Source: an uncultured Anaerolineaceae bacterium (GTDB lineage Bacteria > Chloroflexota > Anaerolineae > Anaerolineales > UBA11579). From it: a stretch of 64,000 nucleotides of DNA. The translations under genes were made by a program, and so were the position numbers. Below, piece by piece: positions 50,574-50,789 of this stretch. The stretch lies in NCBI GenBank assembly GCA_964623375.1, contig CAZUTS010000001.1, positions 7,692-71,691 on the forward strand. The letters run 5' to 3'. Position 1 is the stretch's first letter; each line of letters starts with the position of its first letter. Under the pieces are notes generated by a model that did not search any database, was not told where the DNA came from, and worked only from the letters and a program-made list of their open reading frames with translations.

Positions 50574-50789
50574 CTAGTGCAGGGTCGGGGCAGCTTGGAT
50601 CAGGGTGCCCAAGCGGCGCATGAACTGGTCCAAATCCATAGCCTGGATGGCAGTTACCGCGCGCATTTCTTCTTCATTGAGCTGGAAGGCGCCCAATTTC
50701 TCTTGCAGGCGTCCGCTCAGCAGCGCAGCCTTGAAATCCTGATCGACCAGAGCGAGAGTAGCGATAGCGTTCAATTTCAGTTTGGACAT
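50574..50789 (-). CDS. 71-aa helical protein resembling RiPP leader domains of the NHLP/Nif11 clan (Os1348- or Franean1_4349-like), with no obvious core
   Basis: AAAGGAGA SD 5 nt before the ATG. The sequence ...LVDQDFKAALLSGRLQEKLGAFQLNEEEMRAVTAIQAMDLDQFMRRL fits the D..F+..L...-...L..(F/Y).L(T/N)-EE...L...D...L pattern as I remember it for those families. Confidence 0.55.
   Translation of the reverse strand: MSKLKLNAIATLALVDQDFKAALLSGRLQEKLGAFQLNEEEMRAVTAIQAMDLDQFMRRLGTLIQAAPTLH

What the first reader, a model, noticed from the sequence alone, without database searches (positions are those of the whole stretch)
50574..50789. Leader-like 71-aa NHLP/Nif11-clan protein with no core region, 41 nt downstream of the repeat peptide
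This second small gene has its own AAAGGAGA SD. It encodes MSKLKLNAIATLALVDQDFKAALLSGRLQEKLGAFQLNEEEMRAVTAIQAMDLDQFMRRLGTLIQAAPTLH.

The D-x-D-F-K-x-x-L-L ... F-x-L-N-E-E-E ... D-L-D pattern is what I remember from stand-alone NHLP-clan proteins (Os1348 family, Franean1_4349 family, LigA-like) and from RiPP leader domains. It lacks a Gly-Gly cleavage motif and lacks a Cys/Ser/Thr-rich tail. It therefore looks like a leader domain with nothing attached, sitting beside a gene that is almost entirely core.
Basis: partly seen in the sequence, partly recalled or inferred. Interest (0 to 1): 0.65.

Follow-up and report, generated by a model that had tools for sequence, protein, structure and literature searches.

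The report
Leader-like small protein in signalling cassette
The 71-residue gene is real and is a distant, core-less relative of the folded "leader" domains of modified-peptide precursors, but it sits with a tiny glycine-rich partner peptide in a conserved regulator-controlled signalling cassette of Anaerolineae bacteria, not in a peptide-antibiotic gene cluster.

Summary
Observation confirmed. A 71-aa gene lies on the minus strand (50789→50574), with its own AAAGGAGA ribosome-binding site, 41 nt after a 64-aa 4x HPIGGGIGT repeat peptide gene. It is under strong purifying selection.

It scores below threshold against NF038399 (Os1348 family, 19.9 of 40 bits) and PF14407 (Frankia_peptide). Profile searches still link it firmly to both (hhalign 98.8%). 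It does not match the NHLP or Nif11 models, and it has no Gly-Gly site or core.

The RiPP reading is not supported. No maturase or transporter lies in the 64-kb window or in 8 or more independent related contexts.

Relatives down to 30% identity share one cassette:
- a STAND-NTPase/TPR/SARP regulator;
- a terminator;
- a promoter with direct repeats (TCATAG, 12-nt period) 8 nt from a -10 box;
- a small Gly-rich partner peptide;
- the Os1348-like protein;
- a signalling enzyme (PAS-GAF-HD-GYP here; receiver domains, a kinase or HD-GYP elsewhere).

In other clades the partner is a 42-54-aa membrane or signal-type peptide ending in one PxGGGxG-like tail. Here the anchor is lost and the tail is quadrupled.

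The closest functional analogue is AfsR/AfsS of Streptomyces. I propose a regulator-driven small-protein adaptor module; that mechanism is inferred, not shown.

The parts
51172..54390 (-). Regulator, about 1072 aa: N-terminal STAND/AAA NTPase with a MalT-type winged helix, TPR sensor region, and a C-terminal SARP module (OmpR-type DNA-binding part plus BTAD).
   Evidence: Pfam finds AAA_16/AAA_22, TPR_12/8/2 and BTAD at residues 929-1068. WHD_MalT is listed for the called gene. The last 252 aa match the AfsR SARP domain, 8hvr_I, E 3e-6. A homologous regulator lies upstream in nearly all related loci.
51104..51131 (-). Intrinsic terminator of the regulator gene: stem AGCTACC/GGTGGCT followed by a T-run.
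   Evidence: Read from the sequence. The hairpin plus T-run is kept across loci, with compensatory stem changes (alignment). The simple scanner did not flag it.
51063..51092 (-). Direct-repeat operator: TCATAG at 51092-51087 and 51080-51075 (12-nt period), plus a degenerate third copy TTATAG at 51068-51063.
   Evidence: One exact match in the window and 3 matches at up to 1 mismatch, against 0.10 expected at up to 1 mismatch. The repeat is conserved at the same place in window-type loci and, as GTCATAG..GTCATAC, in distant subgroup (a) loci. L063 has TTCGTGAG/TTCGTCAG at an 11-nt period.
51060..51065 (-). -10-like hexamer TAGAAT, 8 nt after the second repeat read as the heptamer TCATAGG.
   Evidence: A conserved TAnnnT column sits downstream of the repeats in all aligned loci. 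The geometry matches the SARP promoter rule cited in PMC10936776. No transcription start site was measured.
50831..51025 (-). Partner peptide gene, 64 aa: MTNSFAFS followed by 4 units of (N)HPIGGGIGT(G/S)P. It has no hydrophobic segment.
   Evidence: The 9-aa cores of the four units differ by 24 synonymous and 0 non-synonymous codon changes. A gene with 3-5 such units occupies the same position in nearly all window-type loci. It was called as a 64-aa gene in the public record.
50795..50802 (-). Shine-Dalgarno AAAGGAGA of the 71-aa gene.
   Evidence: Read from the sequence.
50574..50789 (-). The finding: a 71-aa, five-helix, core-less protein of the Os1348 / Frankia_peptide type (LigA-like, 'NHLP clan').
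50525..50545 (-). Hairpin GGCTGCACG-TTG-CGTGCAGCC after the 71-aa stop codon, with no T-run. It is followed by a lone TTCATAG at 50524-50518.
   Evidence: -18 kcal/mol with flanks. Related loci also have a hairpin here, but at variable positions and without T-runs. Its function is inferred only (partial terminator or RNA 3' stabiliser).
46970..50485 (-). Signalling output gene: PAS + 5 GAF + HD-GYP (HD_5), a putative c-di-GMP phosphodiesterase, 1171 aa.
   Evidence: Pfam. The same slot holds GAF-HD-GYP, HD-GYP alone, one or two receiver domains, or HisKA-HATPase in related cassettes.

Best explanation
The 71-aa ORF is a real gene. It encodes a divergent, core-less member of the Os1348 / Frankia_peptide branch of the LigA-like ('NHLP clan') helical domains. 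These are the folded protein-binding domains that serve as long leaders in some RiPP precursors.

Here it is not part of a RiPP pathway. It is the second gene of a two-gene small-protein operon (Gly-rich partner peptide, then the Os1348-like protein).

Proposed working (inferred):
1. The adjacent STAND-NTPase/TPR/SARP regulator binds the TCATAG direct repeats that abut the -10 box and activates the operon. This mirrors AfsR activating afsS.
2. The two small products then act as protein-protein adaptors. The Os1348-like dimer and the PxGGGxG motif of the partner peptide engage the regulator's TPR sensor and/or the signalling enzyme encoded next (PAS-GAF-HD-GYP here; receiver domains, a kinase or HD-GYP elsewhere).
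3. This couples the regulator to c-di-GMP or phosphorelay output.

In this Anaerolineales clade the partner peptide has lost its membrane/signal segment, and its C-terminal tail has been amplified to 3-5 tandem units.

Shown: gene reality, homology, operon anatomy, cassette conservation and the peptide's evolutionary transformation. Inferred: who binds the repeats and what the two small proteins bind.
For: GENE REALITY
- Homologues and invariant columns.
- Silent-dominated divergence.

HOMOLOGY
- NF038399 is the only NCBIfam hit, for all 35 homologues.
- 6LK7 (Os1348) is the only PDB sequence hit.
- The profile finds 118 representatives at E<=1e-3.
- Of a 60-sequence set, 48 hit NF038399 (best 6.3e-14) and 23 hit PF14407 (best 4.9e-10).
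- One relative is named an Os1348 family protein by NCBI.
- hhalign gives 98.8%, E 8e-17.

CASSETTE
- The order regulator, small peptide, Os1348-like gene, signalling gene recurs with different housekeeping flanks. Those flanks are DegV/QueA/RuvB, G6PD/PGI, MutS2/SpoVS, DnaX/RecR and glutamine amidotransferase/aminotransferase.
- A tblastn census of 30 loci agrees.

PROMOTER
- Conserved terminator, direct repeats and -10 box.
- The regulator's C-terminus matches the AfsR SARP domain.
- SARP promoter rule: PMC10936776.

SIGNALLING LINK
- Natural fusions of the domain exist, to a receiver domain (P0090) and to an ImmA/IrrE-type peptidase (P0126).

PRECEDENTS
- AfsS, a 2-5-repeat mini-protein encoded next to afsR, binds AfsR through its repeats (PMC10832544).
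- NHLP domains are folded protein-protein interaction modules (PMC12455567).
- A LigA-like domain acts as a peptide-recognition module in TglI (PMC12353581).

NO RiPP MACHINERY in the window.
Against: - No binding or expression data exist. The role of the 71-aa protein is inferred from context only.
- The direct repeats have a 12-nt period here and in subgroup (a). Characterised SARP boxes have 11 or 22 nt. Only L063 has 11.
- Two related loci (L036, L037) lack the regulator in the 1.5-2 kb available upstream.
- The regulator's domain order is the reverse of AfsR's.
- In most clades the Gly-rich tail follows a hydrophobic segment with a positively charged N-flank. This predicts the tail is outside the cell, out of reach of cytoplasmic partners, and fits a secreted-signal model better.
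- Foldseek found neither 6LK7 nor LigA with either AF2 model.
- Enzymes encoded elsewhere in the genome cannot be excluded.
Confidence: 0.5

Rival explanations
1. Secreted-peptide signalling (RRNPP- or pheromone-like). The partner peptide is a pro-peptide whose Gly-rich C-terminal unit is released outside the cell. It is sensed, after re-import or at the membrane, by the TPR regulator. The 71-aa protein is a cytoplasmic chaperone, docking or export adaptor for the pro-peptide. The tandem-repeat version yields several copies per precursor.
For: - All 28 non-repeat partner peptides share one layout: a basic N-flank, a strongly hydrophobic 15-residue segment (KD 1.65-2.76), and an uncharged 7-17-aa Gly-rich tail.
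- L025 has an AxA-like site directly before the tail (VAFA|QPVGGDVGT).
- A TPR-containing regulator is encoded next to the small peptide gene, as in RRNPP systems (established knowledge).
- Subgroup (b) inserts a polytopic membrane protein, DUF5317, between the peptide and the Os1348-like gene.
Against: - The window-type peptide has no hydrophobic segment at all (max KD15 0.49) and no exporter gene nearby.
- Most tails lack a recognisable signal-peptidase site.
- The N-region of the peptides is conserved (M..IR..V.R..HP..VR), which is unusual for a mere export signal.
- No oligopeptide permease or processing protease is conserved in the cassette.
Confidence: 0.2
2. Split RiPP precursor. The 71-aa protein is a trans-acting leader or recognition element. 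It recruits a maturase, encoded elsewhere, to the leaderless multi-core repeat peptide.
For: - The protein belongs to a superfamily mostly known from RiPP precursors and RiPP recognition domains.
- It has a strict, conserved adjacency to a multi-unit peptide with conserved units.
- Leaders supplied in trans can activate some RiPP enzymes in vitro (established knowledge).
- A Peptidase_C39_2/TPR protein and a P450 exist in the window, about 40 and 31 kb away.
Against: - No maturase or exporter lies within +-6-10 kb in 8 or more independent contexts or in the 64-kb window.
- The conserved neighbours are regulators and signalling enzymes.
- The units have no Cys, Ser or Thr pattern typical of cores, beyond one Thr.
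- In other clades the 'core' is a single tail on a membrane-type peptide.
- The 71-aa protein is far more conserved than typical precursor or leader genes (83% mean column identity).
- Fusions are to signalling domains.
Confidence: 0.08
3. The 71-aa protein is itself a precursor or scaffold that remote enzymes modify into a bioactive product, as proposed for Os1348 in Pseudomonas sp. Os17. The neighbouring genes would only regulate it.
For: - It is homologous to Os1348. That gene affects antibiotic activity, and its protein level depends on downstream GNAT, HEXXH-peptidase and SagB-type genes (PMC7726476).
- More distant relatives carry variable C-terminal tails of up to about 50 aa.
Against: - None of the Os1349-1351-type genes is present here or in related cassettes.
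- This clade has virtually no tail: 4-7 variable residues.
- Even for Os1348 itself no modification has been demonstrated.
Confidence: 0.07
4. Artefact or cis-regulatory reading. Either the 71-aa ORF is a chance ORF in GC-rich DNA, or the Gly-rich ORF is merely a glycine-sensing leader peptide or attenuator for the downstream genes.
For: - Many spurious ORFs exist in this GC-rich stretch.
- The upstream ORF is about one third Gly codons.
- A hairpin follows the 71-aa gene.
Against: - Both genes show strong purifying selection at the protein level.
- Both have conserved start codons and ribosome-binding sites.
- Non-Gly residues of the unit (P, I/V, T) are conserved, and orthologues with one unit and a membrane segment exist.
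- No terminator/antiterminator structure lies in the 41-nt gap, and there is no Rfam match.
Confidence: 0.02

Closest known systems
Os1348 of Pseudomonas sp. Os17 (NCBIfam NF038399; PDB 6LK7; PMC7726476)
   Same: Both are small all-helical stand-alone proteins with the conserved D-x2-F...LL..G...F.L...E...A...L..F pattern. Os1348 is the only PDB sequence hit and NF038399 the only NCBIfam hit. Neither has a Gly-Gly site or an obvious core. Os1348 is a stable homodimer.
   Different: The score is below the family cutoff (19.9 vs 40 bits). The protein is 71 aa rather than 85 aa, with five predicted helices rather than six. The context is entirely different. Os1348 is followed by GNAT, HEXXH-peptidase and SagB-type dehydrogenase genes and is Gac/Rsm controlled. 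The gene here lies between a Gly-rich peptide gene and an HD-GYP gene, under a STAND/SARP regulator.
Pfam PF14407 Frankia_peptide (Franean1_4349 prototype)
   Same: Remote homology. It is the best Pfam hit (E 0.02). 23 of 60 extended relatives hit it, down to 4.9e-10. Many relatives carry a precomputed PF14407 label.
   Different: The family was defined as putative ATP-grasp-modified RiPP precursors (PMC8939145). No ATP-grasp gene occurs in any cassette examined. The window protein is far below the gathering score (15.6 vs 48 bits).
NHLP (TIGR03793) and Nif11 (TIGR03798) leader-peptide RiPP precursors; ECOD 'LigA-like domain' group
   Same: These share the same superfamily through Frankia_peptide (ECOD/HHpred, PMC12353581). 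NHLP leaders are folded domains that work by protein-protein contacts (PMC12455567).
   Different: There is no hit to either model at E<=10. There is no Gly-Gly cleavage site, no core and no maturase or PCAT exporter nearby.
AfsR / AfsS of Streptomyces
   Same: - A large NTPase-TPR-SARP regulator is encoded directly next to a tiny protein made of 2-5 short repeats.
- That protein's sequence drifts fast while its repeat architecture is kept.
- The small gene's promoter carries direct repeats abutting the -10 box (PMC10936776).
- AfsS binds AfsR through its repeats (PMC10832544).
- The window regulator's SARP part matches AfsR.
   Different: - The phylum differs (Chloroflexota vs Actinomycetota).
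- The domain order is permuted (NTPase-TPR-SARP vs SARP-NOD-TPR).
- The repeat period is 12 nt rather than 11 nt.
- No sequence similarity between the repeat peptide and AfsS has been demonstrated.
- AfsS has no Os1348-like partner gene and no adjacent HD-GYP or receiver gene.
- The ancestral form of the peptide here is membrane-type with a single unit.
RRNPP peptide signalling (PlcR/PapR, Rap/Phr, NprR/NprX)
   Same: A TPR-containing regulator gene lies next to a small gene. In most clades of this cassette the product of that small gene has a signal-like hydrophobic segment and a short C-terminal peptide. The description of RRNPP is my own knowledge.
   Different: The regulator is a STAND ATPase with a SARP output, not an HTH-TPR or phosphatase. 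No exporter, protease or permease is conserved. The window version lacks any export signal. An extra Os1348-like gene is always present.
TglI N-terminal LigA-like domain (RiPP recognition subunit of TglHI)
   Same: It is a LigA-like three-helix core used as a separate peptide-recognition or regulatory module rather than as a leader (PMC12353581). This shows the fold can act in trans.
   Different: TglI is part of an enzyme complex in a RiPP pathway. No enzyme partner is evident here, and direct similarity was not tested.

Membership tests
NCBIfam NF038399, Os1348 family NHLP clan protein | Whole-protein score at or above the curated cutoff (40 bits) | tested here: not met
   19.9 bits, E 5.7e-4. 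All 35 close homologues hit, but the best is only E 1e-5. NCBI annotates this clade as 'hypothetical protein'.
NCBIfam NF038399, Os1348 family NHLP clan protein | Demonstrable homology to bona fide members | tested here: met
   Profile search to relatives, of which 48/60 hit NF038399 (best 6.3e-14). One relative is named Os1348 family by NCBI. hhalign A1 vs A3 gives 98.8%, E 7.9e-17 over 67 columns. 6LK7 is the only PDB sequence hit.
NCBIfam NF038399, Os1348 family NHLP clan protein | Prototype gene context: GNAT acetyltransferase, HEXXH/gluzincin peptidase and SagB/McbC-type dehydrogenase downstream (PMC7726476) | tested here: not met
   None of these is in the 64-kb window or in related cassettes.
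NCBIfam NF038399, Os1348 family NHLP clan protein | Fold like 6LK7 (six-helix comma-shaped monomer, homodimer) | tested here: inconclusive
   AF2 models have five helices and pLDDT 79-81. Foldseek vs PDB returned nothing below E 4, and not 6LK7. Dimer prediction was not possible with these tools.
Pfam PF14407 Frankia_peptide | Score at or above the gathering threshold (48 bits) | tested here: not met
   15.6 bits, E 0.02. 23/60 extended relatives hit at E<=0.01.
Pfam PF14407 Frankia_peptide | Neighbouring ATP-grasp (RimK-like) ligase, the basis on which the family was proposed as a RiPP (PMC8939145) | tested here: not met
   No ATP-grasp gene in any examined context.
NHLP (TIGR03793) / Nif11 (TIGR03798) leader-peptide precursors | Match to the leader HMM | tested here: not met
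   No hit to either model at E<=10 in NCBIfam. Pfam Nif11 and NHase_alpha were also not reported.
NHLP (TIGR03793) / Nif11 (TIGR03798) leader-peptide precursors | Gly-Gly (GG/GA) cleavage motif followed by a core peptide | tested here: not met
   No GG occurs in the sequence. The protein ends 4-7 variable residues after the last helix.
NHLP (TIGR03793) / Nif11 (TIGR03798) leader-peptide precursors | Clustered maturase (YcaO, LanM, rSAM and the like) and/or C39-peptidase ABC exporter | tested here: not met
   The only such gene is a non-transporter Peptidase_C39_2/TPR protein about 40 kb away.
LigA-like domain superfamily (ECOD X-group; 'NHLP clan') | Remote homology to a member family sharing the three-helix core | tested here: met
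   Met transitively through PF14407/NF038399. ECOD places Frankia_peptide with LigA, NHase_alpha, Nif11, ComX and DurB (HHpred 99.1% to LigA; PMC12353581). One relative also touches LigA models weakly.
AfsR/AfsS-type regulator plus repeat mini-protein pair (functional analogy) | Regulator combining a SARP DNA-binding/BTAD module, a STAND NTPase and TPR | tested here: met
   The domain order is permuted relative to AfsR.
AfsR/AfsS-type regulator plus repeat mini-protein pair (functional analogy) | Tiny protein with 2-5 short repeats encoded immediately downstream of the regulator | tested here: met
   3-5 units in 15 or more loci. However, the more widespread form has a single unit on a membrane-type peptide.
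AfsR/AfsS-type regulator plus repeat mini-protein pair (functional analogy) | Direct repeats 11 (or 22) bp apart, with the 3' repeat 8 bp from the -10 box, in the small gene's promoter | tested here: inconclusive
   Conserved direct repeats sit 8 nt from a TAnnnT box. Their period is 12 nt in the window type and in subgroup (a), and 11 nt only in L063. Binding was not tested.
AfsR/AfsS-type regulator plus repeat mini-protein pair (functional analogy) | Sequence homology of the small protein to AfsS, and physical AfsR-AfsS-like binding | not testable with these tools
   The repeat peptide hits no Pfam or NCBIfam family. A database search with it returned nothing. Any interaction needs experiment or complex prediction.

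The most novel reading that the evidence does not exclude
A Chloroflexota-wide signalling cassette, not found described in the searched literature, in which a RiPP-leader-type (LigA-like) domain has been co-opted as a stand-alone reader or adaptor for a tiny Gly-rich peptide (PxGGGxG). The peptide is membrane-anchored or secreted in most lineages. In this Anaerolineales clade it has been converted to a cytoplasmic 3-5x tandem array. The pair is switched on by an NLR-like STAND/TPR/SARP regulator and feeds into c-di-GMP or two-component output. That would make it a new peptide-based signalling system and the first non-RiPP cellular role for this domain family.
Probability: 0.3. Interest if true: 0.75.

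Novelty: new variant of a known kind. Interest (0 to 1): 0.6.

Why it matters
NHLP, Nif11 and Frankia_peptide-type domains are used in genome mining as flags for RiPP precursors. This case shows a sizeable branch that is instead hard-wired to regulators and signalling enzymes. The branch has 118 representative clusters at 50% identity, and the members with organism labels are Anaerolineae/Chloroflexota MAGs. Automatic 'RiPP precursor' calls for it would therefore be misleading.

It also provides an AfsR/AfsS-like pair outside Actinomycetota. That pair has a clear operator, a clear small-protein output and a traceable evolutionary path, from a membrane peptide with one tail to a soluble tandem array. 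This could help explain how such mini-proteins modulate NLR-like bacterial regulators.

Finally, it offers testable candidates for peptide-controlled c-di-GMP signalling in filamentous Chloroflexota, which are abundant in sludge and sediments and poorly studied.

Tried and rejected
1. Fold comparison. Two AF2 models (pLDDT 81 and 79) were searched with Foldseek against the PDB. Nothing scored below E 4, and neither 6LK7 nor LigA appeared. This is uninformative for a 71-aa helical protein.
2. Database search with the repeat peptide. 2884 candidates, none at E<=1e-3, probably because of low complexity. The reverse co-occurrence test (repeat ORFs without the 71-aa gene) therefore could not be done.
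It was repeated with A3.
4. Simple promoter/terminator scanner on 50300-51400. No hits. The terminator and the operator were found only by cross-locus alignment.
5. Rfam on 50300-51300. Nothing.
6. NCBIfam on ten membrane-type partner peptides. No family.
7. Literature searches. No papers hold DUF5317. None combine BTAD/TPR/Anaerolineae/HD-GYP.
8. Chance ORF. Rejected on the synonymous/non-synonymous pattern.
9. Glycine-sensing leader-peptide attenuator. Rejected because non-Gly residues are conserved, orthologues have a single unit, and the 41-nt gap has no alternative hairpins.
10. P0105, a 2069-aa cadherin/SLH protein from the profile search, is a false positive.
11. A local RiPP cluster. 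Rejected after annotating essentially all large ORFs of the window.
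Full report
**1. Observation**

The window is part of contig DAOMSJ010000008.1, from an Anaerolineales MAG, isolate AMR_MDS_5785 (100% match).

- The gene lies on the minus strand: ATG at 50789, stop at 50576-50574. It encodes the 71 residues quoted.
- AAAGGAGA lies at 50802-50795.
- The gap to the stop codon of the upstream repeat-peptide gene is 41 nt.
- That upstream gene most plausibly starts at ATG 51025, behind its own AAAGGAG. It encodes MTNSFAFS followed by four (N)HPIGGGIGT(G/S)P units (64 aa).

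ORFs of this size are common by chance in this GC-rich DNA: 123 ORFs of at least 40 aa overlap 14 kb. The case for a gene therefore rests on conservation.

- 43 homologues of 57-71 aa share 63-93% identity. Those with source names are annotated 'hypothetical protein' from Anaerolineales MAGs. All share the invariant N-terminus MSKLKLNAIA, and 32 columns are invariant.
- Divergence is dominated by silent changes: 15 synonymous vs 0 non-synonymous codons against L004, and 25 vs 3 against L005.
- The partner peptide is also translated. The four 9-aa cores in the window differ by 24 synonymous and 0 non-synonymous codon changes.

**2. Family**

The protein scores below threshold against the named families.

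- NCBIfam reports only NF038399 (Os1348 family NHLP clan protein), at E 5.7e-4 and 19.9 bits against a cutoff of 40.
- Pfam's best hit is PF14407 Frankia_peptide, E 0.02.
- All 35 aligned homologues hit NF038399 below threshold.
- The only PDB sequence hit of the family profile is 6LK7_A, the Os1348 crystal structure, at E 0.1.

Profile searches make the link firm.

- A profile search of 1.84 billion cluster representatives found 118 proteins at E<=1e-3.
- In a 60-sequence sample, 48 hit NF038399 (best 6.3e-14) and 23 hit PF14407 (best 4.9e-10). One touched LigA models.
- Many further relatives carry a precomputed PF14407 label. One is named 'Os1348 family NHLP clan protein' by NCBI.
- hhalign between the window clade and 27 such relatives gives 98.8% probability, E 7.9e-17, over 67 columns.

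Homology to the Os1348 / Frankia_peptide branch is therefore established, although the protein fails both curated cutoffs. ECOD places Frankia_peptide with LigA, nitrile hydratase alpha, Nif11, ComX, DurB and the TglI recognition domain in one 'LigA-like' group (PMC12353581).

No NHLP or Nif11 leader model is hit, and the protein has no Gly-Gly site or core.

AF2 gives a five-helix bundle (pLDDT 79-81). Foldseek against the PDB was uninformative.

**3. Context**

Nothing in the surroundings looks like RiPP biosynthesis.

- The called genes within +-10 kb are housekeeping, apart from the cassette itself and a PAS-GGDEF cyclase.
- Annotating the other large ORFs of the 64 kb found no YcaO, LanB/C/M, rSAM-SPASM, ATP-grasp, SagB or PCAT exporter.
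- The only possibly relevant genes are a Peptidase_C39_2/TPR protein about 40 kb away and a P450 about 31 kb away.

The gene sits instead in a four-part unit on one strand:

1. A ~1072-aa regulator with an AAA/STAND NTPase, a MalT-type winged helix, TPRs and a C-terminal BTAD. Its last 252 aa match the SARP domain of AfsR (8hvr, E 3e-6).
2. The Gly-rich peptide gene.
3. The 71-aa gene.
4. A PAS + 5 GAF + HD-GYP protein.

**4. The unit is a conserved cassette, not just synteny**

Relatives at 30-58% identity sit between quite different housekeeping genes. Examples are G6PD/6PGD/PGI, MutS2/SpoVS, DnaX/YbaB/RecR, and glutamine amidotransferase/racemase/aminotransferase.

They nevertheless keep the same order:

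- a MalT-WHD/TPR/BTAD regulator;
- a 42-54-aa ORF;
- (in one subgroup) the membrane protein DUF5317;
- the Os1348-like gene;
- a signalling protein: one or two receiver domains, a sensor-less HisKA-HATPase kinase, or HD-GYP.

This is shown, and by a tblastn census of 30 loci. The exceptions are L036 and L037, which lack the regulator in the 1.5-2 kb available upstream.

Two natural fusions support a signalling role: the Os1348-like domain joined to a receiver domain (P0090) and to an ImmA/IrrE-type M78 peptidase (P0126).

**5. Operon anatomy**

Cross-locus alignment of the region between the regulator and the small peptide gene shows three conserved elements.

- *Terminator of the regulator gene.* A hairpin plus T-run, with compensatory stem changes (window 51131-51104).
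- *Direct repeat.* In the window, TCATAG at 51092-51087 and 51080-51075, with a degenerate third copy at 51068-51063. In the distant 76-77-aa subgroup it reads GTCATAG...GTCATAC. In L063 it reads TTCGTGAG/TTCGTCAG.
- *A -10-like box.* TAnnnT, 8 nt after the second repeat (TAGAAT at 51065-51060).

The repeat pattern has one exact match in the window (0.10 matches expected at up to one mismatch).

Characterised SARP promoters have direct repeats 11 or 22 bp apart, with the 3' repeat 8 bp from the -10 box (PMC10936776). The geometry here is the same, except that the period is 12 nt in the window type and in subgroup (a). It is 11 nt only in L063.

I infer that the adjacent regulator activates the peptide/71-aa operon. 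This is not shown.

A hairpin without a T-run follows the 71-aa stop (50545-50525). It may limit read-through into the HD-GYP gene.

**6. The partner peptide**

In the window clade (71-aa identity of 63% or more), nearly every locus has a 3-5-unit repeat peptide with the unit P-x-G-G-G-(I/V)-G-(T/G/H). The variable residue x is I, V, L, M, T, C or R.

In all other clades the gene in the same slot, behind the same operator, encodes a different architecture:

- a basic, partly conserved N-region;
- a strongly hydrophobic segment of about 15-20 aa;
- a short uncharged Gly-rich C-terminal tail.

Examples of these tails are ...TVAFAQPVGGDVGT (L025)...NTNAPIGGGTGV (L036, L037) and ...IQPMAPGNGGGGI.

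APIGGGTGV and QPVGGDVGT clearly correspond to the window unit HPIGGGIGT. The 'almost entirely core' repeat peptide is therefore the amplified tail of a small membrane- or signal-type partner peptide that has lost its hydrophobic segment (max KD15 0.49 against 1.65-2.76).

No known family matches any of these peptides.

**7. Interpretation**

The closest functional analogue is AfsR/AfsS.

- AfsR is an NLR-like SARP/NOD/TPR regulator.
- It directly activates the adjacent afsS, a fast-evolving mini-protein made of 2-5 short repeats.
- AfsS binds back to AfsR through those repeats and strengthens AfsR's DNA binding (PMC10832544; PMC10936776).

NHLP-type domains are folded modules that use different surfaces for different protein partners (PMC12455567). 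A LigA-like domain serves as a trans-acting peptide-recognition module in TglI.

I therefore propose that the 71-aa protein is a small, probably dimeric adaptor. It would be co-expressed with its Gly-rich partner under the STAND/SARP regulator. It would link that regulator to the downstream c-di-GMP or phosphorelay component.

Overall confidence is 0.5. Gene reality, homology, anatomy and cassette conservation are close to certain. The binding partners are inference.

The main rival (0.2) is a secreted or anchored peptide signal, sensed RRNPP-style by the TPR regulator. It fits the membrane-type peptides better but fits the window's anchor-less version worse.

The split-RiPP reading (0.08) and the 'Os1348-like precursor modified by remote enzymes' reading (0.07) cannot be excluded without whole-genome co-occurrence analysis or mass spectrometry. 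Nothing local supports either.

**8. Novelty and score**

The domain family is known and named, so the protein is a divergent subfamily rather than a new fold.

New, as far as the searchable literature shows, are two things:

- the conserved regulator/peptide/Os1348-like/signalling cassette;
- the evolutionary conversion of the partner peptide.

I rate this a new variant of a known kind, with interest 0.6.

Noticed in passing
window 9970-11298 (+): A 442-aa protein with a Peptidase_C39_2 domain (E 2e-14) plus TPRs, about 40 kb from the cassette. C39-type peptidases cut after Gly-Gly, and the partner peptides are Gly-rich. Any link is untested.
   Followed up: no
window 42659-44059 (-): A PAS-GGDEF diguanylate cyclase is encoded about 3 kb beyond the HD-GYP gene, after QueA, RuvB and UPRTase. 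The same arrangement appears at the end of L025. A c-di-GMP synthase and a putative hydrolase thus flank the same neighbourhood.
   Followed up: partly
L013 5435-6213: A tandem duplication of the pair: a short 1-unit peptide (26 aa), a 71-aa gene, a 3-unit peptide, then an identical 71-aa gene. It is either a real duplication or an assembly artefact of the repeats.
   Followed up: no
L012 5750-5953 and L021 5617-5922: The partner peptide gene looks frameshifted or decayed (only fragments of PxGGG units are in frame), while the 71-aa gene stays intact. This is either repeat mis-assembly or evidence that the 71-aa gene can persist without an intact partner.
   Followed up: no
P0090 (205 aa) and P0126 (324 aa): Natural fusions of the Os1348-like domain: to a C-terminal receiver domain (Response_reg, E 2e-19) and to a Peptidase_M78 (ImmA/IrrE-like) domain.
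   Followed up: partly
L063 7389-7973; also L053, L055, L056, L058, L059, L060: In the 84-117-aa subgroup, a polytopic membrane protein of unknown function (DUF5317, 194 aa) is always inserted between the small hydrophobic peptide gene and the Os1348-like gene. No paper in the library mentions DUF5317.
   Followed up: partly
window 50518-50524 (-): A lone copy of the operator half-site, TTCATAG, lies directly after the hairpin that follows the 71-aa gene, 33 nt before the HD-GYP start codon. No second repeat lies at the 12-nt distance. It was not seen to be conserved in other loci.
   Followed up: partly
Subgroup (b) relatives, e.g. P0167, P0172, P0177: The longer relatives carry a conserved C-terminal motif after the domain, roughly (E/D)PPxLxLP, followed by a variable tail of 10-40 aa. 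Such a tail is absent from the window clade.
   Followed up: no
window 17878-19356 (-) and 29062-30615 (+), 32762-33853 (+): A cytochrome P450, a GAF-PAS histidine kinase and a Ser/Thr protein kinase are elsewhere in the window. They are unrelated to the cassette as far as can be seen.
   Followed up: no
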